From the NCBI GenBank assembly GCA_016200345.1, contig JACQEX010000022.1:1-37101 (forward strand): DNA of 37,101 bases, in the 5' to 3' direction. The stretch comes from Nitrospinota bacterium (lineage in GTDB: Bacteria > Nitrospinota_A > UBA7883 > JACRGQ01). The translations under genes were made by a program, and so were the position numbers. The notes under the pieces were generated by a model, which made no database searches, was not told the origin of the DNA, and saw only the letters and a program-made list of their open reading frames with translations. Below are positions 1,678 to 37,101 of the stretch, one piece after another; position 1 is the first letter of the stretch; each line of letters starts with the position of its first letter.

Positions 1678-1734
1678 GCAGTAAACGACCATATACTTCC
1701 GCCATGCAAGTCAGAGCGTGCATCATTGCCACCA
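1678..1734 (-). repeat. inverted dispersed copy (about 88% identity) of a segment of the tandem array at the 3' end of the window (36966-37022)
   Basis: Reverse complement of 1678-1734 aligns with 36966-37022 (tggtggcaatgatgcacgctctgacttgcatggcggaagtatatggtcgtttactgc versus tagtggcaataatacacactctgacttggatggcggaagtacatggtcgtttactgc). Confidence 0.7.
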
Positions 1735-17499: not shown

Positions 17500-19659
17500 T
17501 TAAAAAACGAGTTTCGAAAAATCCGCCATGTCCCCGAACAGCCCGGTAACCGTGCGCAAAAGCGCGATTCTGTTGTTCATAAGCTCCGGTTTGCCGGCGT
17601 CCATCACCATGACGGAGTCAAAAAACTTGTCAATATACGTCCGCATCTCAGCTATCTCTTTCAACGCGCCCCTGTAGTCCGCCTTGCGCTTCAACGGGGT
17701 CGCGACACGCTCCTTCTCCAAGTACGCATTATAGAGGTCTTTTTCGGCATTTTCCTGAAAGAATTTTTCGTTAAGGACGGCGTTGACGTCGGCCAATTTT
17801 TCCTTCCCCTTGGTTATGTTGGCGGCACGGCGGAAGGTAATGGCAAGGTCCTGCGCGTAGGGGAGTTTTTTGACCTCAGTAAGAGCTTCGCATATATTAA
17901 GTAGGTCGGTCAAATAATAATGGTCCGTATCAGCAAACAAAACTGCATCTATTACGTCATAATCGAGATTACGTCTAGTTTTAAACTCGTATTTTATTCG
18001 TTCAATAAAGAAATTAGGCATCCCTTTGCCCTTAATTGCTTTGAAATTTCCTTTAATTGCTTCTTTCGACCAAGTCTTATATCTTCCTTCAGGGCGTAAG
18101 TCGTCAGGCAAATTTATATTTCCGGTATCTGCTAATTCGGCGATAGTTATAGGCATGCCATTCTCAAGCAGTATCCTTATGATTCCAAGGGCATGTCGCC
18201 TAAGCGAGTACGGATCTTCGGAACCCGTTGGTATCAAGTCAATCGCCCAACAGGCGCAAATGGCGTCGATTTTATCCGCAAGCGCGACTATGGACGCGAC
18301 CGCCGAACCGGGCAGGGCGTCTCCTGCAAACCTAGGCCTATAGTGTTGGTCAATCGCCTCGGCCAGCCGTCCGTCCACCCCTTTGGCCTTGGCGTACTCC
18401 CGCCCCATGATTCCCTGTAGCTCCGGGAACTCGAAAACCATCTGTGTTGCGAGGTCGAATTTGCAGAGGTCGGCCGACGTCTCGACGTCGAGCACGGTCT
18501 GCGCGTCAATCGTATTTTCTTTTTTAAGTAATCTAGCCAAACCCTCTGATATTTTGCGTATTCTGGACACCTTGTCGGCGAGGGAGCCAAGCCCCTTCAT
18601 GTAGGTTACGCCGGCAAGTTTTTGTTGGAAATGTTCCAACGGGTGCTTCCTGTCTTCGTCGAAGAAAAACCGGGCGTCCGAAAGCCGCGCGGTCAGGACG
18701 CGCTCGTACCCTTTTCGGACGTTTGTCATGTCCGGGCAGGCGGTGTTGCTAAAGGCGACGAATTTGTTGGTAATCCGTCCGTCCGGGGACTCTGCCGGGA
18801 AGTACCGCTGGTGGTGTTTCATTACCGTGACCAACAGCTCGCGGGGGAGGTCCAGGTAGCTTTCCTTGAAGGAGCCGACGACGGCGACCGGGCTTTCCGT
18901 GAGGTTGCAGACCTCGTCAATAAGGCCGTCGTCCCGAACCGGCGCTATGCCGTCCCTGCCCATGTCGTCGAACTGCTTTTCGACGAGGGCTTTTCGTTTT
19001 TTGGGGTCCGCGGTAACATGCGCTTTTTCGAGGGACGATTCGTAGTCGTCCGGGGAGACGACGGTGATTACGCCTTCCGACATGAATCGGTGGCCCGCCG
19101 TGGTGTTGCCGGATTTTAGCCCCCCGGCGGTTACGTTTAGCGTTTCCGTCCCGAAGAGGGCGAGTATGGAGCGAAGCGGGCGGGCGTAGCGGAGGTCGCC
19201 GTTGCCCCACCGCATGGTTTTTTTGAAGGGGAGGGAGGTGATTGCCTCTTTCAGGATTTCTTCGGCGACGCGGGCGGTTTCTCGGCCCGGTTCCTCTATG
19301 TTTAGGAAGAGGTATTCGCCTTTTGGGGTGGTTTCGGACTGGAGGTCTTCGGCCTTTTTTCCGTGCTTGGCGGCAAACCCGACCGCGACCGGCGTGAAAG
19401 AGCCGTCCGGGGCCACGGCCGATTTTTTTGGGGGGCCGGAGACTTTTTTGGTTCTGGCCTCCTGCTTGTCCGGCAGGCCGGAGACGACGACGGCTATTCT
19501 GCGCGGGGTGGCGAAGGAGGCGGTGGCCGTTGGTTTAAGGCCGACGGCCTCGAATTTTTTTTGGACGAACTCCGCCAGCGCGTCTGCGGCCGGCTGGATG
19601 TAGCCTGCGGGGATCTCCTCGCTCAGTATTTCGAACAGCAATTTTTTGGCGGTGGTCAA
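17500..19659 (-). CDS. glyS: glycine--tRNA ligase beta subunit (no adjacent glyQ)
   Basis: 719 aa, TTG start preceded by GGAG. N-terminus MTTAKKLLFEILSEEIPAGYI matches the GlyS family. Contains an AT-rich patch (about 17885-18260) encoding roughly 30 extra residues. Confidence 0.9.
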   Translation of the reverse strand: MTTAKKLLFEILSEEIPAGYIQPAADALAEFVQKKFEAVGLKPTATASFATPRRIAVVVSGLPDKQEARTKKVSGPPKKSAVAPDGSFTPVAVGFAAKHGKKAEDLQSETTPKGEYLFLNIEEPGRETARVAEEILKEAITSLPFKKTMRWGNGDLRYARPLRSILALFGTETLNVTAGGLKSGNTTAGHRFMSEGVITVVSPDDYESSLEKAHVTADPKKRKALVEKQFDDMGRDGIAPVRDDGLIDEVCNLTESPVAVVGSFKESYLDLPRELLVTVMKHHQRYFPAESPDGRITNKFVAFSNTACPDMTNVRKGYERVLTARLSDARFFFDEDRKHPLEHFQQKLAGVTYMKGLGSLADKVSRIRKISEGLARLLKKENTIDAQTVLDVETSADLCKFDLATQMVFEFPELQGIMGREYAKAKGVDGRLAEAIDQHYRPRFAGDALPGSAVASIVALADKIDAICACWAIDLIPTGSEDPYSLRRHALGIIRILLENGMPITIAELADTGNINLPDDLRPEGRYKTWSKEAIKGNFKAIKGKGMPNFFIERIKYEFKTRRNLDYDVIDAVLFADTDHYYLTDLLNICEALTEVKKLPYAQDLAITFRRAANITKGKEKLADVNAVLNEKFFQENAEKDLYNAYLEKERVATPLKRKADYRGALKEIAEMRTYIDKFFDSVMVMDAGKPELMNNRIALLRTVTGLFGDMADFSKLVF

Positions 19660-19683
19660 GTTATCTCCAGTATTGGCAGTGCT

Positions 19684-19728
19684 TCATTTTGAATTGCGGA
19701 TAGCGTCAAACGGGCGGATTGCTTCGCT
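19684..19728 (+). repeat. copy A of an approx. 45-bp direct repeat (cattttgaattgcggata...gattgcttcgcta) in the glyS-marR intergenic region
   Basis: About 85% identical to copy B at 19887-19929. Confidence 0.7.
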
Positions 19729-19730
19729 AC

Positions 19731-19776
19731 GCTCGCAATGACAGTTACTTGTCATTGCGAGACCGCTTTCAGCGGT
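19731..19776. repeat. perfect 12-bp-arm palindrome CTCGCAATGACA-gttact-TGTCATTGCGAG, immediately followed by a second hairpin GACCGC-tttca-GCGGTC
   Basis: Read directly from the sequence. No adjacent T-run, so not a typical intrinsic terminator. Confidence 0.7.
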
Positions 19777-19886
19777 CGCGGCAATCTGCTCTAGATCCAA
19801 ACTGAAGCACTACCCCAGTTTTTCACCCTTGCAAGTTTAACCATCTGCCGCCCCATAGGCAAGCCAAATGAAAGGGGGGTTGTGGG

Positions 19887-19929
19887 TCATTTTGAATTGT
19901 GGATAACCTGAAACGCAGATTGCTTCGCT
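19887..19929 (+). repeat. copy B of the approx. 45-bp direct repeat
   Basis: Matches 19684-19728 with substitutions clustered in the centre of the unit. Confidence 0.7.
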
Positions 19930-19971
19930 ATTTCGGCAACCGATATCAAGTTGCAAGAAAACTCTCTCTGA

Positions 19972-20001
19972 CTTGAAATGGGCGAACAACCAAACGTATA
20001 C
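19972..20001 (+). promoter_or_regulatory. putative sigma70 promoter: TTGAAA, 18-bp spacer, TATACT, reading toward the marR-like gene and RND operon
   Basis: Good -35/-10 hexamers with an acceptable spacer. An 18-codon ORF with an AGGAA Shine-Dalgarno follows at 20019-20075. Confidence 0.35.
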
Positions 20002-20213
20002 TGCAAAAGGTAGGAAATAATGACAAGCATTATATTTTTGCATTCTCGGAGAAACGTTCCCTTGGGCTGGAAATAACGAGGGGCAATTTTGGCGTTGCTT
20101 CCCCCAATAAATCGGCGGTTGAAAAACAGGCTAATTATTAGTATCTGCGCCCGCTGGGGCTTTCGCAGGCCAAATGGCGCGTCCTTCTGAACATATCCAA
20201 ACACAAGGGGGCG

Positions 20214-20507
20214 TTGAACCAGACGCACCTCGCGGAGTGCATCGGCGTGGAGACCCCGACGCTCGTCCGCCTTTTGGACAGGCTGGAGAAGGACGGCTGG
20301 GTAAAACGGCTCGACTCGCCCGCCGACAGAAGGGTAAAGATAGTGAAGCTCGGCCCCAAGGCCGGGACGGTTATGAAGGTTATAAACAAGACGTCGCTTG
20401 ACACGCGAAAGGAGATTACCTCCTCCGTTTCCGCCGCCGAGATGAAAAAACTCGTCTCCATTTTGGCGAAGATATCCCATAAGTTGGAAAAAATGAGAAA
20501 TGGCTGA
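20214..20507 (+). CDS. MarR-family transcriptional regulator, apparently 5'-truncated. The winged-HTH and C-terminal helix are intact; the N-terminal dimerisation helix is absent.
   Basis: LNQTHLAECIGVETPTLVRLLDRLEKDGWVKRLDSPADRRVKIVKLGPKAG aligns with the MarR wHTH. The in-frame extension stops at a TAG at 20139-20141 with no ATG or GTG before the TTG at 20214. Confidence 0.6.
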   Translation: MNQTHLAECIGVETPTLVRLLDRLEKDGWVKRLDSPADRRVKIVKLGPKAGTVMKVINKTSLDTRKEITSSVSAAEMKKLVSILAKISHKLEKMRNG

Positions 20508-21768
20508 CCGTTATTTTTCGCCCGGCCTTATTTTTCTTCTGGCGCTCGTTGTCGCCGCCTCGGCGGGCGCGGAGACCGGCGAGATTAAAAAAGGCTCCGT
20601 GCTGACGCTTGGGCAGTGCGTGGACGTCGCGCTGGAGCACCAGCCGGCGATAATATCGGCGGCGCAGGCGAAGGTCGCGGCGGAGAGCAGGGTGGGGGAG
20701 GCGAAGTCCGCATACTATCCCCAGCTTAACGCGACGGCGGGATATCTCCAGACGCGGCCCGTGCCTTCCGCCACGCAGAACTTTCAGGAGTCCTCTATCG
20801 GCGCGTCCCTCACGCAGACGATTTACGATTTTGGAAGAACGTCCTCGCTGGTGAACGCCCAAAAATATTCCGCCGAGGCGGCCGGCTCCGACGTGGAGAG
20901 CGCCAAAAACGCCGTCATCCTTGGCGTGAAGGCGGCGTACTACGCGCTTGTGCAGTCCAAGCGCAACGCGGCCGTCGGCAAGGAGACGGTGGCGCAACTT
21001 GGCGAGCATTTGGAGCTGGCGCGCGGTCTTTTTACGGCGGGGGAGAAGCCGAGGTACGACGTGATAAAGGCGGAGGTGGATTTGAGCAACGCCAAAATCG
21101 CGCTTATCCACGCCTTGAACAACGAGCGTCTGGCCAAGGCTGGGCTGGACAACGCGATGGGCGTGACAGCCGATTACGACGTCGCGGACGATTTGGAATA
21201 CAAAAATTACTCCGTCTCGCTGGAGGAGGCGCTGAAAAAGGCTTATGAAAACAGGCCGGACTACCGCGCGGCCACCCAAAGGGCGATGATGGCCCGTGAG
21301 ACGGTGGAGGGTTCCCGAAGCGGGTATTACCCCACGCTTTCCGGCAACGCGCAATATTCAACGGAGCAGTCGCTTCCAGATTTTTGGTTTTTCGGGGTGA
21401 CGCTTACGGTTCCTATTTTCACGGGGAATTCCACGACGTATCTTGTCCGTGAATCGCGGGCCAACTACAACGCCGCGGTTTCGGCGCAGGAGCAAACGCG
21501 GCTGAACGTGTACACGGAGGTGAGCCAGGCGTACCTTAATCTTGCGGAGGCGCAGGAGAAAATCCCCGCAAACGAGCTTTCGGTGAAACTTTCGCAGGAA
21601 AGTCTGGACATATCCAAAGGAAGGTACAAGGAGGGAGTCGGAACCGCGATCGAGGTTTCGGACGCGCAGATAACCTTCAGCAACGCCCGCGTCGCATACA
21701 TCCAGTCCCTGATGGATTATAAACTCGCCCAGGCGACCCTGGAAAAAGCCATAGGAGGAACCAAGTGA
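20500..21768 (+). CDS. outer-membrane efflux protein (TolC/OprM family) of the RND operon
   Basis: Signal peptide. Two OEP repeats. ATG overlaps the end of the marR-like gene. Confidence 0.85.
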   Translation: MADRYFSPGLIFLLALVVAASAGAETGEIKKGSVLTLGQCVDVALEHQPAIISAAQAKVAAESRVGEAKSAYYPQLNATAGYLQTRPVPSATQNFQESSIGASLTQTIYDFGRTSSLVNAQKYSAEAAGSDVESAKNAVILGVKAAYYALVQSKRNAAVGKETVAQLGEHLELARGLFTAGEKPRYDVIKAEVDLSNAKIALIHALNNERLAKAGLDNAMGVTADYDVADDLEYKNYSVSLEEALKKAYENRPDYRAATQRAMMARETVEGSRSGYYPTLSGNAQYSTEQSLPDFWFFGVTLTVPIFTGNSTTYLVRESRANYNAAVSAQEQTRLNVYTEVSQAYLNLAEAQEKIPANELSVKLSQESLDISKGRYKEGVGTAIEVSDAQITFSNARVAYIQSLMDYKLAQATLEKAIGGTK

Positions 21769-22886
21769 AAAATATCCGCGCCCTTTTTTGCCTCGCCCTT
21801 TCGGCGGTTTTTTTAACCGGCTCCTGCTCGGGTGGCGGCAAGGCCGGGGGGCCCAGGAAATTTCCGCCGGCCCCCGTGCGCGTGGTGAAGGCGGAGAAAA
21901 AGGACGTCCCCTACGACATCGAGGGAATCGGCGTCGCGGAGTCCATCGCCCCCGTCGCCGTCGTCGCGCAAGTCAACGGGCAGATAGAAAAAATCCATTT
22001 TATGGAGGGGGCGTTCGTACACAAGGGGGATTTGATTGTAACGATTGACCCGCGCCCTTTTAAGGCGGCGCTTTCGCTTGCGTCGGCGAACCTAAGCAGG
22101 GACGAGGCGCAGTTGAAAAACGCCAAAAAAGAGGAGGCGCGAAACCGCGAGCTGATTAAAAAAGGTTTTGTTTCCCAGTCGCAGTACGACCAAATAGCCG
22201 CCACCGCCGACGCGTTGACCGGTACGGTCTCGGCCGACAAGGCCGGGGTTGACGTGGCAAAGTTAAATTTGGAGTACTGCTTTATCCGCTCCCCCATCAC
22301 CGGAAAGGCCGGCGAGGTGACGGTGAAGGAGGGGAACCAGATAAAGGCCAACGACAAGACGATAGTGACCATTCTTCAGATAAGGCCGATATACGCGACG
22401 TTTTCCGTACCGCAGACACATCTTCCATTGATAAGGAAATATCAGGAGAAGGGCGCGCTGTCGTCCACGGCGATTCCGACCTCCGGCAAGCCCGAGACCG
22501 GCGGAAAAATTGTGTTTACCGACAACGCGGTTGACCAGGCCACGGGGACGATAAAGCTAAAGGCGGTTTTCGAGAACGCCGACCACGCTCTTTGGCCCGG
22601 CCAGTTCCTGCGCGTTTCGCTTTTCCTGACGGTGGAAAAAGGCGTCGTCGTTGTTCCGTCACAGGCGCTAATGGCGACGCAGAAGGGGCAGACGGTTTAC
22701 GTGGTGAAGGGGGACGGCACCGCCGAGCTAAGGCCGGTGAAGGTCGAGAGGGAGCACGGAATGGAATCGGTAATCGAGGGCGGTTTGCAGGCCGGGGAGA
22801 CGGTTGTTTTGGACGGGCAGTTGCAGACTATGCCGGGCGGAATGGTTAAGGTAATCGAGAACAATCCGCCAGCCGAGAAAAAGTGA
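21765..22886 (+). CDS. efflux RND transporter periplasmic adaptor subunit (AcrA/MexA-like lipoprotein)
   Basis: Lipobox LTGSCSGG. Biotinyl-lipoyl-like and beta-barrel regions of the HlyD_D23 family. 4-nt overlap with the RND gene. Confidence 0.9.
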   Translation: MKNIRALFCLALSAVFLTGSCSGGGKAGGPRKFPPAPVRVVKAEKKDVPYDIEGIGVAESIAPVAVVAQVNGQIEKIHFMEGAFVHKGDLIVTIDPRPFKAALSLASANLSRDEAQLKNAKKEEARNRELIKKGFVSQSQYDQIAATADALTGTVSADKAGVDVAKLNLEYCFIRSPITGKAGEVTVKEGNQIKANDKTIVTILQIRPIYATFSVPQTHLPLIRKYQEKGALSSTAIPTSGKPETGGKIVFTDNAVDQATGTIKLKAVFENADHALWPGQFLRVSLFLTVEKGVVVVPSQALMATQKGQTVYVVKGDGTAELRPVKVEREHGMESVIEGGLQAGETVVLDGQLQTMPGGMVKVIENNPPAEKK

Positions 22887-25800
22887 ACATCCCACAGCTG
22901 TTTATAAAACGCCCGGTTATGACGACCCTCGTCATGGTCGCCATAACCATGTTCGGGCTTGTCGCGAGTAATTTTCTTCCCGTCAGCGATTTGCCGAACG
23001 TGGATTTTCCGACCATCCAAGTTAGCGCGGTGCTCCCCGGCGCAAGCCCGGACACGATGGCCGCCGCCGTGGCCACGCCTTTGGAGCGGCAGTTCTCGAC
23101 CATCGCGGGGCTGGACTCCATGACGTCCGTCAACACGCTCGGTCAGACAATGATTACGCTCCAGTTCGCGCTTTCGAGAAACATAGACCTCGCCGGACAG
23201 GACGTGCAGGCGATGATTACGAAGGCCGCTAGGCTTCTGCCGGTGCAGATGCAGGTTCCGCCCACGTACCAAAAGGTGAACCCCGCCGACCAGCCGATTT
23301 TATACGTCGCGCTAAGCTCGCCCGTTCTGCCGCTGTCCAAGGTGAACGACTACGCGGACACGATGATTTCGCAGAGGGTCTCGATGGTGAACGGTGTGGC
23401 GCAGGTGATGATTTTCGGCTCGCAGAAGTTCGCCGTTCGCGTTCAGATAGACCCCAACAAGCTAGCCAGCATGGGGGTAGGGATGGACGAGGTGAACTCA
23501 GCACTTGCGAAGGGGAACGTAAACATCCCGACGGGCGTGATATACGGGTCAAAAATTCAATACACCATACAGGCGCAGGGGCAGATGTTCCACGCCGAGG
23601 AGTACAAGAACCTCATTATCGCGTATCGCAACGGGCGGCCCGTGAGGGTGCGCGACGTCGGCACGGCGATAGAAAGCGTGGAGAACGACAAGATAGCCAG
23701 CTGGTATAAGTCCGACCGCGCGATGGTGCTGGCGATTCTCCGCCAGCCCGGCACAAACACCATAGAGGTGGTGGACAACATCAAAAAACTCATGCCCGGC
23801 TTTAGGGCGCAGTTGCCGCCGACGGTTAGCATGGACATCCTTTACGACCGCTCGGCCTCGATACGCGACTCGGTGAACGACGTAAAATTCACGCTTCTTC
23901 TGACGATGGGGCTGGTGGTGCTGGTCATCTTCCTTTTCCTAAAGAACATTTCGTCCACGATTATCCCGAGCCTTGCGCTCCCTTTGTCCGTAATAGGCAC
24001 GTTCTCTGTTTTGTATCCGCTTGGGTACAGCATAGACAACCTCTCGCTGATGGCGCTGACCCTCTCGGTGGGGTTCGTGGTGGACGACGCCATAGTCGTG
24101 TTGGAAAACATCGTCCGCCACATGGAGATGGGGAAGACGCCGATGCAGGCCTCGCTGGACGGCTCGCGGGAGATAGGCTTCACGGTTCTTTCCATGACCG
24201 TCTCGCTTGTCGCGGTGTTCATACCGATATTCATGATGGGCGGAATTTTGGGGAGGTTGTTGCACGAGTTCTCGGTCGCCATCTGCGCCGCCATCATCAC
24301 GTCGGGCGTCGTGTCGCTTACGCTCACGCCGATGGTTTGTAGCCGGTTTTTGCGCGACCAGAAGAAGGAAAAACACGGTCGCGCCTACTGGGCGCTGGAG
24401 AACGGCTTCAATAAAATCAAATCCATGTACTCCTCCAGCCTTCGCAGGGTTCTCGGGCACAAGAGCGCGGTAATTATGCTCTTTGTGGTGATTTTGATTG
24501 CGACCGTTGTTTTGTTCGCCAAGATGCCGTCCGGCTTTTTGCCGACGGAGGACACGGGATTGATTTTCGCGTTCACCGAGGCGAGGCAGGGAATAGGGTT
24601 CGAGGACATGATGGAGCACCAGAAAAAACTCGCGCAGATTGTTCAAGAGGACCCGAACGTGAAGTCGTATATGTCCGCGGTCGGCGCGGGCGGAATATCC
24701 TCGGCCAACCAGGGGAGGATGTTCATGATTCTAAAGCCGCTCGGCGAGCGCAAACTTTCCGCCGACGAGGTGATAAACGAGCTGAGGCCCAAGATGGCGA
24801 AAATCCCCGGCATCCGGGCGTTCATGCAGATTCCGCCGCCGATAAGAATTGGCGGCAACTTGACCAAGGCGCAATACCAATACACCCTGCAGGCGCCGAC
24901 CACCGAGGAGCTTTACAAGTACTCCGCCGTGATGGAGGAAAAGCTCAGGACGGCTCCTGCGCTTATGGACGTGAACAGCGACATGCAGTTGACGAATCCG
25001 CTCATAAACCTGGACGTCAAAAGGGACGTCGCGTCGAGCTACGGCATAACCGCCGGGCAGATTGAGAGTTCGCTTTATTACGCATACGGCACGTTTCAGG
25101 CCTCCACCATTTACACCTCCGACAACCAGTACCAGGTCATAGTGGAGGTAAGCCCGGAGTTCCAGAGGGACGCCAAGGCGCTGGGTCTGCTCTACGTTCG
25201 TTCGCCGTCCGGAACGCTTGTGCCGTTGAACGAGTTGGCAAAGGTCAACGTCGGGGTGGGGCCGCTTGCGGTGAACCATCTGGGGCAGTTGCCGGCCGTG
25301 ACCATTTCGTTCAACATCAAGCCGGAGGTCTCGCTTAGCGACGCGATGGACTCCATAAACAACGTGGCGACGCAGGTTCTGCCGAGCGATTTCACCACGG
25401 GGTTCCAGGGGGCGGCGCAGGCGTTTCAATCGTCGTTCAGGGGGATGTGGCTCATCATCCTTCTCGCCATCGTGATAATTTACATCGTGCTCGGAATCCT
25501 TTACGAAAGTTTTATTCATCCGCTGACGATTTTGTCCGGCCTTCCGTCTGCGGGATTTGGCGCGGTGCTTTCGCTGATGCTGTTTCACAAGGAGCTAAAC
25601 GTTTATTCCCTTGTCGGCATAATAATGCTGGTCGGAATCGTGAAGAAGAACGCCATCATGATGATAGATTTCGCGCTCGAGGCGGAAAGGCAGGGGGCGC
25701 ACAATCCGGAGGAGGCGATTTTCCAGGGGGCCGTGACGAGGTTCCGGCCGATTATGATCACCACAGCGTGCGCGTTGATGGGCACGCTCCCCATCGCGCT

Positions 25801-25969
25801 TGGCGCCGGGGCCGGGGCGGAGTCGCGGAGGCCGCTCGGCCTCGCCGTGGTTGGCGGGCTTCTATTTTCTCAGTTGCTGACCTTGTACCTAACGCCCGTG
25901 GTTTACGTCTACATGGACAAAATCCAGCGTCGCTTCTCAAAAAAAGCCGCGCCAGAGCCGGCGAAATAA
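22883..25969 (+). CDS. RND multidrug efflux permease (AcrB/HAE1 family)
   Basis: 1028 aa, 12 TM helices plus two large periplasmic loops. Conserved TM4 motif VGFVVDDAIVVLENI. Confidence 0.95.
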   Translation: MNIPQLFIKRPVMTTLVMVAITMFGLVASNFLPVSDLPNVDFPTIQVSAVLPGASPDTMAAAVATPLERQFSTIAGLDSMTSVNTLGQTMITLQFALSRNIDLAGQDVQAMITKAARLLPVQMQVPPTYQKVNPADQPILYVALSSPVLPLSKVNDYADTMISQRVSMVNGVAQVMIFGSQKFAVRVQIDPNKLASMGVGMDEVNSALAKGNVNIPTGVIYGSKIQYTIQAQGQMFHAEEYKNLIIAYRNGRPVRVRDVGTAIESVENDKIASWYKSDRAMVLAILRQPGTNTIEVVDNIKKLMPGFRAQLPPTVSMDILYDRSASIRDSVNDVKFTLLLTMGLVVLVIFLFLKNISSTIIPSLALPLSVIGTFSVLYPLGYSIDNLSLMALTLSVGFVVDDAIVVLENIVRHMEMGKTPMQASLDGSREIGFTVLSMTVSLVAVFIPIFMMGGILGRLLHEFSVAICAAIITSGVVSLTLTPMVCSRFLRDQKKEKHGRAYWALENGFNKIKSMYSSSLRRVLGHKSAVIMLFVVILIATVVLFAKMPSGFLPTEDTGLIFAFTEARQGIGFEDMMEHQKKLAQIVQEDPNVKSYMSAVGAGGISSANQGRMFMILKPLGERKLSADEVINELRPKMAKIPGIRAFMQIPPPIRIGGNLTKAQYQYTLQAPTTEELYKYSAVMEEKLRTAPALMDVNSDMQLTNPLINLDVKRDVASSYGITAGQIESSLYYAYGTFQASTIYTSDNQYQVIVEVSPEFQRDAKALGLLYVRSPSGTLVPLNELAKVNVGVGPLAVNHLGQLPAVTISFNIKPEVSLSDAMDSINNVATQVLPSDFTTGFQGAAQAFQSSFRGMWLIILLAIVIIYIVLGILYESFIHPLTILSGLPSAGFGAVLSLMLFHKELNVYSLVGIIMLVGIVKKNAIMMIDFALEAERQGAHNPEEAIFQGAVTRFRPIMITTACALMGTLPIALGAGAGAESRRPLGLAVVGGLLFSQLLTLYLTPVVYVYMDKIQRRFSKKAAPEPAK

Positions 25970-26048
25970 TTTTCGCAACTTGGCGGCGCATTATTGCCCG
26001 TTTCTTTAATCCTTTGGGGCGGGGCGTATATTTGGTAGAATCCAACGG

Positions 26049-27020
26049 ATGAGCGTAGCGTTTTTAGATTTTGAAAAACGAATCCTCGAGCTTGAGGGAA
26101 AACTGGAGGAGTTGCGCTCGCTCAGCAAACTCCAGAACACCGATTTTTCCTCCGAGATTAGGAAAATGAACAAAAAGCTCAAGCAACTAAAAAAAATCAC
26201 CTTCTCCAAGCTCAGCAGATGGCAGAAAACCCAGCTGGCCCGCCATCCGGCCCGCCCGTACGCGCTGGACTACATCAAGGAGCTTGCGCCGGACTGGGTG
26301 GAGTTGCAGGGAGACAGGCTTTTCGGAATAGGGCCGTCAATCGTCGCCGGATTCGGCACAATGGAGGGACGATCCGTATTGTTCATCGGAATCCAAAAAG
26401 GGCGCGAGACAAAGGAAAAAATGTTCCGCAATTTCGGAATGCCGCATCCCGAGGGATATCGAAAGGCGCTAAGGCTTATGAAGCTGGCGGAGAAATTTTC
26501 CAGGCCCGTCGTCACGCTTTTGGACACCCCCGGCGCCTTCCCCGGCATAGGGGCGGAGGAGCGCGGACAGGCGGAGGCGGTGGCGCGAAACCTCATGAAG
26601 ATGGCGTCCCTCACCGTGCCGGTTGTCTGCGTGGTCACGGGCGAGGGGGGAAGCGGCGGCGCGCTTGCGCTTGGCGTGGGCAACAAAGTGCTGATGCTGG
26701 AGCATTCGGTCTATTCCGTCATCTCCCCGGAGGGATGCGCCGCGATTTTGTGGAAGGACCAGGCGAAGGTGGAGGACGCCGCGGAGGCTCTGGCCCTCAC
26801 GGCGCAGGATCTTTTGGGCAACAAGATGATTGACGAGATTGTCCGCGAACCGGCCGGCGGCGCGCACAGGGACCCGGTCCTTGCCGCGCACGTTTTGAAG
26901 AGGGTTTTGCGAAGGCACATTGACCAGCTCTCCCAGCTTTCACCGCAGGAATTGGTGAAACAAAGACGCGACAGGTTTAGGAACATCGGCCTTTACTTCG
27001 AGCAATACCCCGGCAAATAG
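26049..27020 (+). CDS. accA: acetyl-CoA carboxylase carboxyltransferase alpha subunit
   Basis: MSVAFLDFEKRILELEGKLEEL start. PGAFPGIGAEERGQAEAVARNL motif. Confidence 0.95.
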   Translation: MSVAFLDFEKRILELEGKLEELRSLSKLQNTDFSSEIRKMNKKLKQLKKITFSKLSRWQKTQLARHPARPYALDYIKELAPDWVELQGDRLFGIGPSIVAGFGTMEGRSVLFIGIQKGRETKEKMFRNFGMPHPEGYRKALRLMKLAEKFSRPVVTLLDTPGAFPGIGAEERGQAEAVARNLMKMASLTVPVVCVVTGEGGSGGALALGVGNKVLMLEHSVYSVISPEGCAAILWKDQAKVEDAAEALALTAQDLLGNKMIDEIVREPAGGAHRDPVLAAHVLKRVLRRHIDQLSQLSPQELVKQRRDRFRNIGLYFEQYPGK

Positions 27021-27151: not shown

Positions 27152-28048
27152 TCACTTTTTTATATAGGCGAGGAGGGATTTGGCGACGTGCTCGGCGAGT
27201 TTCACGGGGACGGCGTTTCCGATTATCTGCTCCACGTTCGTCGCGCCCCCGACAAGCTTGAAACTTTTCGGGAACGTCTGGACCATGCTTCTTTCCCTCG
27301 TGGTCAGCGGGCGGAGTCCGTGGATTTTCGCGGCGTCTCCCGGATGGCCGGGGTAGCCCTTTGGCACGGGCCTGTTTACGCCGCGCACCGTGGGGCTTGG
27401 CTCGTCCATTCCGAAAACGCCCCTTCTTGAATAGCTTCTCGGATGGCGGTAGTAATGCTCGACGCCGAGGCTCTTTCCAAAATAATCGCGCATGGTCGTC
27501 TTTTTTGTCGTCAGGCCGTCCGCGAGAAAACTTTCCAAGAATCCGTCCTTGGCGCCGACGGCTCCGATTACGAAAAGCCTTTTTCTTTTCTGCGGGACGC
27601 CGCAGTAGCTAGCGTCCAGAACTTTGGCGGTTATTCCGTAGCCGGATTTTGAAAAAACTTTTCGCGCCTCCGCGAGGGTTTTGGAGTTTAGGGCGAGCGG
27701 GACGTTTTCCATTACGAAATATTGGGGATGAACCGTGCAAACAATCTCGGCGAAGGAGATGGTGAGGTCGGCCTTGCCGCGCGCCTCGTCCCTTTTTCCG
27801 GCGGACGAGAAATCTTGGCACGGCGGGCCGCCGATGATTATTTGCGGGTTGAATTTTTTTATTTCCGACGGCGAGTTTTTGTCCGAGAGGTCGCGCAGAA
27901 AGATCGGATGTCCGTGGAAATTGGCCGCGTACAAATCCACGGCCTTGTCCCAGCCGTCGTATGCGGCGACGATTTTACAGCCGGCGTTAGCAAAGCCAAG
28001 GGAAAGTCCGCCCCCCCCGGCGAACAGGTCAACCGTCCTTAACTCCAT
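27152..28048 (-). CDS. DNA (cytosine-5)-methyltransferase, Dcm-like, with no restriction-endonuclease partner
   Basis: Motif I DLFAGGGGLSLGF, motif IV GGPPCQDFSSAGKR, motif VI ENV. 298 aa. Confidence 0.9.
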   Translation of the reverse strand: MELRTVDLFAGGGGLSLGFANAGCKIVAAYDGWDKAVDLYAANFHGHPIFLRDLSDKNSPSEIKKFNPQIIIGGPPCQDFSSAGKRDEARGKADLTISFAEIVCTVHPQYFVMENVPLALNSKTLAEARKVFSKSGYGITAKVLDASYCGVPQKRKRLFVIGAVGAKDGFLESFLADGLTTKKTTMRDYFGKSLGVEHYYRHPRSYSRRGVFGMDEPSPTVRGVNRPVPKGYPGHPGDAAKIHGLRPLTTRERSMVQTFPKSFKLVGGATNVEQIIGNAVPVKLAEHVAKSLLAYIKK

Positions 28049-36229: not shown

Positions 36230-36306
36230 GGGCCTATAGCTCAGTTGGTTAGAGCCCCCGGCTCATAACCGGGTTGTCCTAGGTTCAAGTCCTAGTGGGC
36301 CCACCA
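36230..36306 (+). tRNA. tRNA with CAT anticodon (elongator Met or lysidine-type Ile2; G1-C72 pair argues against initiator)
   Basis: 77-nt cloverleaf folded by hand: acceptor GGGCCTA/TGGGCCC, D-arm GCTC-AGTTGGTTA-GAGC, anticodon arm CCCGG-CTCATAA-CCGGG, T-arm CTAGG-TTCAAGT-CCTAG, CCA encoded. Confidence 0.85.
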
Positions 36307-36363
36307 AAATAAACAAAACTCCCCATTCGGGAGAGTTTTGCTTATTTTTGATGTAGGCCCGCT
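36299..36363 (+). repeat. 65-bp direct repeat copy 1, spanning the last 8 nt of the tRNA plus its terminator
   Basis: Identical at every base to 36498-36562. Confidence 0.9.
36315..36349 (+). terminator. tRNA intrinsic terminator (AAAACTCCCC-attc-GGGAGAGTTTT + GCTTATTTTT)
   Basis: Hairpin plus T-run 9 nt after the tRNA CCA end. Duplicated within the second 65-bp repeat. Confidence 0.7.
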
Positions 36364-36497
36364 AGGACTTGAAGGCGAGCCGACGGCCCGACGAGTAGGA
36401 GGGCATTCCGCACGTGATGTGCGGAATAGTCGGCGAGGTGAGCCTACGCAGGAGGGAACACGATGTTCCCGACGTAGTAGGCATTCCACAGTCTTTC

Positions 36498-36562
36498 GCC
36501 CACCAAAATAAACAAAACTCCCCATTCGGGAGAGTTTTGCTTATTTTTGATGTAGGCCCGCT
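36498..36562 (+). repeat. 65-bp direct repeat copy 2
   Basis: Perfect copy. The 134 bp between the copies contains two perfect hairpins (ATTCCGCAC-gtgat-GTGCGGAAT and GGGAACA-cga-TGTTCCC). Confidence 0.9.
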
Positions 36563-36573
36563 TTTGGCCGGTA

Positions 36574-37101
36574 CGCACCAAGTACACGCTAAAGCGTGTA
36601 CCCACCGGAAAAAGCAATTGGGTGGGTGCGGCCTTTTTTTTCTCCCGGTAGGCACGGCCTTTAGGCTGTGCTACATTGGCGCTTTCGCGGCAACGTACAG
36701 GTTAAAACCTGTACCCACCGGAGAATGCAATTTGGTTTGGTAGGCACGGGCTTTTTTTTCTCCCGGTAGGCACGGCCTTTAGGCTGTGCTACATTGCCGC
36801 TTTCGCGGCAACGTACAGGTTAAAACCTGTACCCACCGGAAAAAGCAATTTGGTGGGTGCGGGTTTTAACCTGTACACCTTCGCATTGGCGCTCCGCGGC
36901 AATGTACACACTAAAGTGTGTACCCACCGGAAAAAGCAATTTGGTGGGTGCGGGCTTCTCGGCAACCATCCTCTAGTGGCAATAATACACACTCTGACTT
37001 GGATGGCGGAAGTACATGGTCGTTTACTGCGGCCTGCACTCCTTCGCATTGGCGCTCCGCACAAATTAAAACCTAAAGCGTGTAACCACCCGAAAAAGCA
37101 A
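36574..37101 (+). repeat. tandem array (at least 5 units, periods 113/118/91/162 bp, truncated by the window end) of a composite multi-hairpin element; REP/BIME-like or a tandem small-RNA gene array
   Basis: Each unit has a 20-bp perfect palindrome with a TAAA loop whose stem covaries between copies (GTACACGC / GTACAGGT / GTACACAC), then CCCACC...GGTGGG and a T8 run. The spacer carries hairpins GCACGGCC-ttta-GGCTGTGC and TTGCCGC-tttc-GCGGCAA and a TGcTACATT extended -10-like motif. Confidence 0.8.

What the first reader, a model, noticed from the sequence alone, without database searches (positions are those of the whole stretch)
19660..20507. Repeat-rich 550-bp intergenic region ending in a 5'-truncated marR in front of the RND efflux operon
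Between the glyS start and the RND operon lie a duplicated 45-bp element (19684 and 19887), a perfect 12-bp-arm palindrome plus a second hairpin, a reasonable promoter (TTGAAA-18-TATACT) followed by an 18-codon ORF with a Shine-Dalgarno (MTSIIFLHSRRNVPLGWK, 20019-20075), and then a MarR reading frame that opens only after a TAG at 20139-20141. The MarR lacks the ~28-residue N-terminal dimerisation helix present in MarR/MexR, and has no ATG or GTG before the TTG at 20214. MarR-type repressors (for example MexR for mexAB-oprM) normally control such operons. A truncated repressor would mean derepressed efflux, and the repeat elements may be what disrupted its 5' end. The small ORF could alternatively be a regulatory leader peptide.
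Basis: partly seen in the sequence, partly recalled or inferred. Interest (0 to 1): 0.55.

Follow-up and report, generated by a model that had tools for sequence, protein, structure and literature searches.

The report
89-bp deletion beheads efflux repressor gene
This contig of a groundwater-type Nitrospinota genome lacks 89 bases that near-identical assemblies still have, a loss that removes the start and first helix of a MarR/SlyA-type repressor in front of an intact efflux-pump operon; this is an ordinary regulator knock-out (or an assembly error), and the nearby repeats did not cause it.

Summary
The marR frame opens only after the TAG at 20139-20141. It has no ATG or GTG start and lacks the N-terminal helix. 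The repeats, palindromes, promoter-like site and 18-codon ORF are all present.

The cause is not the repeats. Contigs from three independent sequencing runs (L115-L117) are 100% identical to the window upstream of 20144 and 99.85-99.94% identical downstream. They carry 89 extra bases between window positions 20144 and 20145. Those bases restore a TTGAAA-17-TATGCT promoter, a SlyA-like operator box (TTAGTATGCTAA), an ATG and 26 codons, giving a 146-aa full-length MarR (P0109).

So the window holds a recent 89-bp deletion allele, or less likely an assembly error. The deletion removes half the operator, the end of the -10 element, the start codon and dimerisation helix alpha1. The TolC-MFP-RND genes are intact.

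The upstream repeats are a 140-nt MITE-like hairpin element plus a 5' fragment of a second copy. The parts of this region that the intact-allele contigs cover are identical in them, and the nearest repeat ends about 190 bp from the breakpoint. The small ORF is no more than chance would give.

Whether efflux is derepressed cannot be told from sequence. Interest is low: this is a known kind of lesion in an environmental MAG.

The parts
17500..19659 (-). glyS (glycyl-tRNA synthetase beta subunit). It starts at a TTG preceded by GGAG and is divergent from the marR operon.
   Evidence: Pfam tRNA_synt_2f, E = 6e-188. The closest relative, L006, also starts glyS at TTG and has no glyQ upstream.
19675..19814 (.). 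140-nt MITE-like hairpin element with 20-nt terminal inverted repeats (19675-19694 / 19795-19814). It is flanked by CCAGTATT (19667-19674) and CCAGTTTT (19815-19822), which look like a target-site duplication.
   Evidence: Inverted repeat I1, 85% complementary. Fold energy -68.2 kcal/mol, z = -7.3. Flanks read from the sequence. No Rfam match.
19717..19786 (.). Palindromic core of the element: GATTGCTTCG..CTCGCAATGACA / TGTCATTGCGAG..GCAATC. It includes the perfect 12-nt-arm palindrome (19732-19743 / 19750-19761) and a side hairpin (19758-19780).
   Evidence: The same modules occur in a Deltaproteobacteria MAG (L013), an Aulosira plasmid (27/27 nt identical) and Novosphingobium, Methylobacterium and Methylosinus plasmids. 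Logan contigs from both sides break here.
19882..19930 (+). 5' fragment of a second copy of the element (left inverted repeat up to the first 13 nt of the core). It has no right end.
   Evidence: Alignment score 56 against 15 +/- 2 in shuffles. No significant right-end match downstream.
19973..20002 (+). Distal promoter-like site P1 (TTGAAA-18-TATACT, 10 of 12 matches). It is unchanged in the intact allele.
   Evidence: This is a consensus match only; one site was found where 0.6-0.8 is expected by chance.
20020..20076 (+). 18-codon ORF (MTSIIFLHSRRNVPLGWK) with an SD-like AGGA upstream. Probably not a gene.
   Evidence: 27.5% of shuffles give such an ORF. Its weak resemblance to marR codons 19-31 is at chance level.
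20119..20144 (+). Retained part of the marR proximal promoter/operator P2: the -35 TTGAAA (20119-20124), the palindrome CTAATTATTAG (20131-20141), and the left half of the SlyA-like box together with the first 3 nt of the -10 (TTAGTAT, 20138-20144).
   Evidence: Matches the L001-L003 promoter at 24 of 26 positions, with 0 expected by chance. Identical to L115-L117. The intact alleles score as TTGAAA-17-TATGCT; the window does not.
20144..20145 (+). Deletion junction. Relative to the intact allele, 89 nt are missing here: TGCTAATCGCCTATGGGTAATGACGGCGAAAAATTCGGCCCTTTGTTGCTGGCGATACAGCGTTCGTGGCGCGGAATAATTGACGAGCG. There is 1 nt of microhomology (T).
   Evidence: Alignment A2 and megablast. The size had been predicted from the 59%-identical orthologue L001.
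20145..20507 (+). marR remnant: codons 27-146 of a SlyA-like MarR, covering the wHTH and helices alpha5-alpha6. NCBI annotates it from the CTG at 20145 (120 aa). The only canonical in-frame start is the TTG at 20214 (97 aa).
   Evidence: Pfam MarR, 4.5e-16. P0001. 100% identical to the matching part of P0109 and its DNA.
20500..21768 (+). TolC-family outer-membrane efflux protein. It is intact, and its start overlaps the marR stop (ATGGCTGA).
   Evidence: Pfam OEP, 3.6e-73. NCBIfam TolC family. 59% identical to the L002 orthologue.
21765..22886 (+). RND periplasmic adaptor (MFP), intact.
   Evidence: 62% identical to the L002 orthologue.
22883..25969 (+). RND permease (MdtB/MuxB-like, HAE1), intact.
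   Evidence: Pfam ACR_tran, full length. NCBIfam. 77% identical to the L002 orthologue.

Best explanation
The window carries an 89-bp deletion allele of a SlyA-like marR gene that heads a marR-tolC-mfp-rnd operon.

In the intact allele, a sigma-70-type promoter (TTGAAA-17-TATGCT) overlaps a SlyA-type box (TTAGTATGCTAA). The promoter ends 8 nt before an ATG that has no Shine-Dalgarno sequence, so the mRNA is probably leaderless. The gene encodes a 146-aa MarR, which presumably represses its own promoter and the pump genes.

The deletion fuses position 3 of the -10 hexamer directly to codon 27. It removes:
- the right half of the operator box;
- the invariant last T of the -10 (TATGCT becomes TATCTG);
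- the transcription start and the start codon;
- helix alpha1, one of the three helices that build the MarR dimer.

What remains cannot make a normal MarR dimer, so this genotype is a repressor-null.

Shown: the 89-bp difference, what it removes, and that the pump genes are intact.
Inferred: that the deletion is biological rather than an assembly error; that MarR represses this operon; and that the pump is now expressed constitutively, most plausibly from the untouched distal promoter-like site P1 at 19973-20002, because the proximal promoter is damaged.

The repeat-rich DNA upstream is a separate matter. It is a 140-nt MITE-like hairpin inserted 15 nt upstream of the glyS start codon, plus a 5' fragment of a second copy. 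The stretch from 19737 to 20144 is identical in contigs that carry the intact allele.
For: 1. Intact allele exists. P0109 (146 aa) shares its last 120 residues exactly with the window's product. It is encoded on contigs from three runs, SRR12113409, -10 and -11.
2. The difference is one 89-nt block. Those contigs are 100% identical to window 19737/20004-20144 and 99.85-99.94% identical to window 20144-26759. They differ only by an 89-nt block at 20144|20145 plus 2-10 SNPs.
3. The same deletion was inferred independently. Orthologues with 59% and 58% identical MarR show the same picture: the 26-nt promoter/operator of L001-L003 matches window 20119-20144 at 24 of 26 positions (0 expected by chance) and abuts codon Leu27.
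4. Nothing of the lost part survives elsewhere. No remnant of the N-terminal codons is found anywhere in the window.
5. The lost residues are alpha1. P0109 aligns with SlyA, PA3341 and MarR structures from residue 4-9, while the window product aligns only from chain residue about 23-31. Helices alpha1, alpha5 and alpha6 form the MarR dimerisation domain (PMC2724296).
6. All other homologues keep a longer N-terminus. All 106 homologues other than the window's own product and one 99-aa product of a 544-bp contig are at least 134 aa long.
7. The operator box is specific. TTAGTA(N)GCTAA occurs once, 7-20 nt upstream of every intact marR, and nowhere else in 126 loci. The window has no TTAG-N4-CTAA at all. 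The box matches the SlyA consensus TTAGCAAGCTAA at 10 of 12 positions (consensus from PMC5797941 and PMC6401476).
8. The proximal promoter is damaged. The promoter scan finds TTGAAA-17-TATGCT in the intact allele but not in the window.
9. The window is a distinct genotype. It differs from all four Logan runs at 21693 and from three of them at 23086. The junction has only 1 nt of microhomology, which a de Bruijn assembler could not bridge without supporting reads (my own reasoning).
10. TAG is an ordinary stop codon here, used by 7 of 26 genes.
Against: - The deletion allele is seen only in this one MAG contig. Neither the 97-aa nor the 120-aa product is on record in any other assembly. All three informative independent assemblies carry the intact allele.
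- Raw reads could not be examined, so a scaffolding or curation artefact is not excluded.
- The remaining 363 nt of marR are 100% identical to the intact allele. This fits a very recent deletion and an artefact equally well.
- Repression of this operon by this MarR is inferred from gene order, from the position of the box and from family knowledge. Nothing was measured.
- Because the -10 element is damaged, the operon could be less expressed rather than more.
Confidence: 0.68

Rival explanations
1. Assembly or scaffolding artefact. The organism has the intact 146-aa marR, and the 89-bp gap arose when the MAG contig was built, for example by joining two contigs across a short bubble without inserting Ns.
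For: All three independent run assemblies that cover the site carry the intact allele, and their flanks are identical. The deletion allele is found nowhere else. The remnant shows no decay at all. If the MAG comes from the groundwater study that the related MAG names suggest (not verified), its contigs were MEGAHIT assemblies scaffolded with IDBA-UD (PMC7906910).
Against: There is no repeat longer than 1 nt at the two breakpoints, so a k-mer graph cannot jump across without real junction reads. There are no Ns at the junction. The contig also differs from all four run assemblies by linked SNPs, so it represents a different genotype or sample rather than the same reads assembled badly.
Confidence: 0.27
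2. A shortened but functional MarR, translated from the CTG at 20145 (as NCBI annotates) or the TTG at 20214, still regulates the operon.
For: The frame is open for 121 codons and keeps the complete wHTH and helices alpha5-alpha6. AAGGGGG lies just upstream of the TTG at 20214.
Against: - Alpha1 is part of the dimerisation domain.
- None of the 106 full homologues lacks it.
- A TTG start would also remove alpha2.
- There is no SD before the CTG. The CTG lies inside the -10 remnant, upstream of any transcript from that promoter (and inference).
- Its operator box is half deleted.
Confidence: 0.03
3. One reading: insertion or recombination of the repeat elements destroyed the marR 5' end.
For: A MITE-like element and a fragment of a second copy lie in the same intergenic region. 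Gene order upstream of marR differs from the orthologous loci: glyS here, lexA or a kinase there.
Against: From 19737 onwards the repeat-containing DNA is present, base for base, upstream of the intact allele. The breakpoint lies inside the marR promoter, about 190 bp from the nearest repeat. No repeat sequence is found at the junction.
Confidence: 0.01
4. The promoter-like site P1 and the 18-codon ORF form a leader-peptide or attenuator control of the efflux operon.
For: P1 matches the consensus at 10 of 12 positions. The ORF has an SD-like AGGA 4 nt upstream and lies between P1 and marR.
Against: Such an ORF arises in 27.5% of shuffles. One promoter-like hit is what chance gives. The orthologous loci have only 55-90 bp upstream of marR and no equivalent. 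No terminator-like or anti-terminator structure follows the ORF.
Confidence: 0.03

Closest known systems
SlyA / PA3341 branch of the MarR family (solved structures 3q5f, 2fbh; NCBIfam NF002926 SlyA)
   Same: The intact allele P0109 aligns over its whole length with PA3341 (E = 2e-27) and SlyA (E = 3e-24). It scores 110 bits on the SlyA equivalog model. Its promoter carries TTAGTATGCTAA, which matches the SlyA consensus TTAGCAAGCTAA at 10 of 12 positions.
   Different: The score is below the SlyA equivalog cut-off of 120 bits, so it is not SlyA itself. It sits as the first gene of an RND efflux operon in Nitrospinota rather than acting as a stand-alone global regulator. The window's copy lacks residues 1-26.
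nalB-type mexR mutants and marR mutants (loss of a MarR-type local repressor leading to over-expression of an RND pump)
   Same: A lesion inactivates a MarR-family gene next to intact RND pump genes. Premature termination or deletion of mexR is a documented route to MexAB-OprM over-expression (PMC4750933).
   Different: - Here marR is co-transcribed as the first gene of the pump operon, not divergent from it.
- The deletion also takes out half the operator and the end of the -10 element, so the direction of the expression change is uncertain.
- The setting is an environmental MAG with no phenotype data.
- The lesion may even be an assembly artefact.
MITEs and REP-like palindromic intergenic repeats
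   Same: The 140-nt element has 20-nt terminal inverted repeats and 7-of-8 matching 8-nt flanks. It has no coding capacity and folds strongly. A second partial copy lies nearby. Its core occurs in many copies in other genomes.
   Different: No full second copy and no cognate transposase were found. The 19-nt arm sequence gave only seed-level hits in metagenomes. In the window the two core halves are in swapped order compared with the canonical hairpin seen in Alphaproteobacteria, Cyanobacteria and L013.

Membership tests
MarR/SlyA family transcriptional regulator | Winged helix-turn-helix DNA-binding domain (alpha2-alpha3-alpha4-beta1-beta2) | tested here: met
   Pfam MarR (PF01047) 4.5e-16 and MarR_2 7.3e-16 on the 121-codon remnant. 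Alignment to SlyA, PA3341 and MarR structures.
MarR/SlyA family transcriptional regulator | N-terminal helix alpha1, which together with alpha5 and alpha6 forms the dimerisation domain | tested here: not met
   Homology starts at the first or second codon after the TAG, which corresponds to chain residues about 23-31 by chain numbering. The intact allele P0109 aligns from residue 4-9. No N-terminal remnant is present in any frame. The role of alpha1 is taken from PMC2724296.
MarR/SlyA family transcriptional regulator | A usable translation start for a full-length product | tested here: not met
   There is no in-frame ATG or GTG between the TAG at 20139-20141 and the TTG at 20214. The ATG of the intact allele lies inside the deleted 89 nt.
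MarR/SlyA family transcriptional regulator | Palindromic operator in its own promoter (autoregulation) | tested here: not met
   The box TTAGTA(N)GCTAA is present once upstream of every intact marR. In the window only TTAGTAT remains, and there is no TTAG-N4-CTAA anywhere in the 37 kb. Actual binding was not tested.
Repressor-null efflux-derepression mutant (nalB/marR type) | Inactivating lesion in the local MarR-type repressor while the pump genes stay intact | tested here: met
   The deletion is shown. OEP, MFP and RND are full-length, with full-length Pfam and NCBIfam matches and 59-77% identity to their orthologues.
Repressor-null efflux-derepression mutant (nalB/marR type) | Raised pump expression or a resistance phenotype | not testable with these tools
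   This needs RNA-seq, qRT-PCR or MIC data. The damaged -10 element (TATGCT to TATCTG) makes the direction uncertain.
MITE / REP-like mobile palindromic element | Terminal inverted repeats, small size and no ORF | tested here: met
   20-nt arms, 85% complementary, at 19675-19694 / 19795-19814. The element is 140 nt long. Fold z-score -7.3.
MITE / REP-like mobile palindromic element | Target-site duplication | tested here: inconclusive
   CCAGTATT (19667-19674) against CCAGTTTT (19815-19822), 7 of 8 identical. No empty site was available for comparison.
MITE / REP-like mobile palindromic element | Multiple dispersed copies in the same genome | tested here: inconclusive
   The 37-kb window holds only one further partial copy, 200 bp away. 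Logan contigs break within the core on both sides, which suggests that the core is repeated in the metagenome. The core family is multi-copy in other taxa. The rest of the genome was not available.
Leader-peptide / attenuation control | A conserved small ORF coupled to alternative RNA structures upstream of the regulated genes | tested here: not met
   The ORF is at chance level. It is absent from the orthologous loci. No terminator-like site follows it.

The most novel reading that the evidence does not exclude
The deletion is a real, recently arisen strain polymorphism in a natural Nitrospinota population. One 89-bp event removes the repressor's start and alpha1, half its operator and the end of its proximal -10. 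Control of an MdtB-like RND pump then passes to a distal constitutive promoter. This would be natural selection for constitutive efflux outside any clinical setting. Separately, the hairpin core next to it belongs to a cross-phylum palindromic repeat family (Nitrospinota, Deltaproteobacteria, Cyanobacteria, Alphaproteobacteria) for which I found neither an Rfam family nor a paper.
Probability: 0.2. Interest if true: 0.4.

Novelty: new member of a known kind. Interest (0 to 1): 0.2.

Why it matters
If the deletion is real, it is a clean natural example of a regulator knock-out in front of an RND efflux operon in an uncultivated groundwater-type bacterium, coexisting with the intact allele in the same population. 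That would be useful as a marker of strain-level selection on efflux, but it is not mechanistically new.

In practice, the NCBI annotation of a 120-aa MarR starting at CTG is misleading. The gene should be treated as a pseudogene or a suspect assembly site.

The comparison also defines the likely promoter and SlyA-type operator of this family of marR-tolC-mfp-rnd operons.

Tried and rejected
- Frameshift or decayed N-terminus upstream of the TAG. The in-frame upstream sequence (..GNFGVASPNKSAVEKQANY*) has the same FG-to-LRPLGL spacing as P0002. However, tblastn and Smith-Waterman comparisons with shuffles found no remnant of the deleted codons (70 of 300 and 284 of 300 shuffles scored at least as well). 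Rejected.
- The small ORF as a relic of marR codons 19-31 (ATGACAAGCATTAT against ATGAGAAGCATCAT). At chance level.
- TAG read-through or recoding. TAG ends 7 of 26 confident genes. Rejected.
- Loss of glyQ at the same breakpoint. The nearest relative (L006, glyS 69% identical) also has a stand-alone glyS, with divergent fabD upstream. Rejected.
- Rfam. No family matches the intergenic region or the canonical palindrome (only sub-threshold miRNA-hairpin noise).
- Metagenome scan for the 19-nt arm TCATTTTGAATTGYGGATA. It gave 29 loci, but the matches are essentially the seed alone (at most 31 nt) in unrelated contexts. No further copies of the element were found.
- Literature search for the palindrome sequence. 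It returned only unrelated primer hits.
- Supplement search of PMC7906910 for the run accessions. Nothing was found, so the provenance of the MAG and runs from that project is unverified.
- Exact-product look-ups for the deletion allele (97 aa and 120 aa). Neither is on record.
Full report
**What is there**

The window is a whole 37,101-bp contig of an NCBI MAG labelled Nitrospinae/Nitrospinota bacterium. On the minus strand, glyS ends its 5' side at 19659, with a TTG start preceded by GGAG. On the plus strand, an operon of a TolC-family protein (20500-21768), an RND adaptor (21765-22886) and an MdtB-like RND permease (22883-25969) follows, and then accA.

Between glyS and the operon lie about 480 bp of lower-GC DNA (46% against 56% for the window), followed by a MarR reading frame. 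That frame opens only after the TAG at 20139-20141 and has no ATG or GTG before the TTG at 20214. The 18-codon ORF is at 20020-20076.

**The marR lesion**

The 121-codon frame is a clear MarR wHTH (Pfam 4.5e-16). Its similarity to solved SlyA, PA3341 and MarR structures begins at the first or second codon after the TAG. That corresponds to chain residues about 23-31, so helix alpha1 is absent.

The closest homologues outside its own 90% cluster (P0002, 149 aa, 59% identical; P0003, 152 aa, 58% identical) sit in the same marR-OEP-MFP-RND gene order, followed by accA in the P0002 loci L001-L003. These are therefore orthologous loci.

Aligning their upstream DNA showed that the 26-nt promoter/operator of L001-L003 (TTGAAAACCATGCTAATTATTAGTAT) is present at window 20119-20144. 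It matches at 24 of 26 positions, with none expected by chance, and it runs directly into codon Leu27. This predicted a deletion of about 89 bp.

The prediction was confirmed directly. The 90%-identity cluster of the window's protein contains a 146-aa member, P0109, whose last 120 residues are identical to the window's product. It is encoded on contigs assembled independently from three sequencing runs (L115-L117). These contigs are 100% identical to the window up to 20144 and 99.85-99.94% identical from 20144 to as far as 26759. They carry exactly 89 extra nucleotides at the junction.

The missing block holds four things:
- the last three bases of the -10 hexamer (TATGCT);
- the right half of a TTAGTATGCTAA box;
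- 8 nt and an ATG with no Shine-Dalgarno sequence;
- codons 1-26 (MGNDGEKFGPLLLAIQRSWRGIIDER).

P0109 aligns with SlyA and PA3341 from residue 4-9, so the lost residues are alpha1. Alpha1, alpha5 and alpha6 form the MarR dimerisation domain (PMC2724296).

**Operator and promoters**

The box TTAGTA(N)GCTAA occurs exactly once in each locus that has an intact marR, 7-20 nt upstream of the ATG. It occurs nowhere else in 126 fetched loci. The window contains no TTAG-N4-CTAA at all. The box matches the published SlyA consensus TTAGCAAGCTAA at 10 of 12 positions (PMC5797941, PMC6401476). This fits the protein's best family match, SlyA at 110 bits, just under the cut-off of 120.

The simple promoter scan finds two plus-strand sites in the intact allele: P1 (TTGAAA-18-TATACT) and P2 (TTGAAA-17-TATGCT, ending 8 nt before the ATG). 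In the window only P1 is found, because the deletion turns the P2 -10 into TATCTG.

From this I infer that the intact gene is autoregulated at P2. I also infer that in the deletion allele any pump transcription must come mainly from P1 or from a weakened P2. Neither point was measured.

**Real allele or artefact?**

For a real allele:
- The breakpoints share only 1 nt, so a k-mer assembler could not produce the junction without reads that contain it.
- There are no Ns at the junction.
- The contig differs from all four run assemblies at 21693 and from three of them at 23086. It therefore represents another genotype.

For an artefact:
- The deletion allele is seen only in this contig.
- All three informative independent assemblies are intact.
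- The remnant is 100% identical to the intact allele.

I put the chance that it is real at about 70%. Either way, the truncation is not the state of the lineage. The remnant's 58-59% identity to its orthologues equals the 57% between two intact orthologues, and TAG is a normal stop codon.

**The repeats**

Positions 19675-19814 form a 140-nt element with 20-nt terminal inverted repeats. It folds at -68 kcal/mol with z = -7.3. It is flanked by CCAGTATT and CCAGTTTT and lies 15 nt upstream of the glyS start codon. Positions 19882-19930 are a 5' fragment of a second copy with no right end.

From 19737 to 20144 the repeat-containing DNA is identical upstream of the intact allele. The nearest repeat ends about 190 bp from the breakpoint. 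The repeats therefore did not cause the truncation.

The element's core is built from the modules GATTGCTTCG-N5-CTCGCAATGAC and GTCATTGCGAG..GCAATC. These also form hairpins elsewhere:
- in a Deltaproteobacteria MAG (L013);
- in an Aulosira plasmid, with 27 of 27 nt identical;
- at 40 or more places on Novosphingobium pSA1;
- in Methylobacterium and Methylosinus plasmids.

No Rfam family matches these hairpins, and no paper prints the sequence. Independent contigs from both the glyS side and the marR side stop inside this core. That is the pattern expected if the core is repeated in the metagenome.

A metagenome scan for the element's arm found nothing beyond the seed.

**Small ORF**

An ATG ORF of at least 18 codons with an SD-like motif arises in 27.5% of shuffles of this region. 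It has no counterpart in the orthologous loci. I do not regard it as a gene.

**Verdict**

The sequence holds a SlyA-like marR that an 89-bp promoter-to-alpha1 deletion has beheaded, in front of an intact RND efflux operon. The intact allele is present in the same population.

This is a familiar kind of regulator-null lesion, comparable to mexR/nalB mutants (PMC4750933). It may instead be a local assembly error, and its effect on expression is untested. Interest is low, at about 0.2.

Noticed in passing
window 36230-36562: A tRNA-Met (CAT) lies at 36230-36306. Its 3' end starts a 65-nt stretch (36299-36363) that is repeated 100% identically at 36498-36562. This looks like an att-type duplication left by an integration next to the tRNA.
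   Followed up: no
window 36569-37101: Five copies of a hairpin-containing unit of about 49-63 nt (GTACAGGTTAAAACCTGTACCCACCGGAAAAAGCAA...), spaced 91-162 nt apart, run off the end of the contig.
   Followed up: no
window 1678-1732 and 36976-37030: A 55-nt inverted repeat, 91% complementary, sits near the two ends of the contig, 35 kb apart.
   Followed up: no
window 19717-19786; L013 10385-10467; L125 1466-1542; L126 1460-1527: A cross-phylum palindromic intergenic repeat, GTCATTGCGAG-N5-CGAAGCAATC ..loop.. GATTGCTTCG-N5-CTCGCAATGAC. It is found in Nitrospinota, a Deltaproteobacteria MAG, a cyanobacterial plasmid (27/27 nt identical), and Novosphingobium (at least 40 places on pSA1), Methylobacterium and Methylosinus plasmids. 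No Rfam family or paper was found. In the window the two halves are in swapped order.
   Followed up: partly
window 19737-19741; L116/L117 start; L122-L124 end: Independent Logan contigs from the glyS side end at window position 19741, and those from the marR side start at 19737, both inside the palindrome core. This suggests that a core of about 55 nt (19712-19766) is repeated in the metagenome. The glyS-marR join in the MAG therefore rests on reads that span this core.
   Followed up: partly
L116 383-422; L001 5964-6003; L004 5962-6003: Intact marR genes of this operon family have no Shine-Dalgarno sequence, and their -10 hexamer ends 8-10 nt before the ATG. They are probably translated from leaderless mRNAs.
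   Followed up: no
window 17500-19659; L006 4906-8097: In this Nitrospinota lineage glyS stands alone, without glyQ immediately upstream. The upstream gene is divergent: fabD in L006, the marR operon in the window.
   Followed up: partly
window 27152-28048: A C-5 cytosine DNA methyltransferase gene lies between accA and a Kdo-transferase gene. No restriction-enzyme partner was noticed.
   Followed up: no
window 20145-20507: NCBI annotates the remnant as a 120-aa MarR family regulator starting at CTG (MBI3793573.1). Given the intact 146-aa allele, it would be better flagged as a pseudogene or a suspect assembly site.
   Followed up: yes
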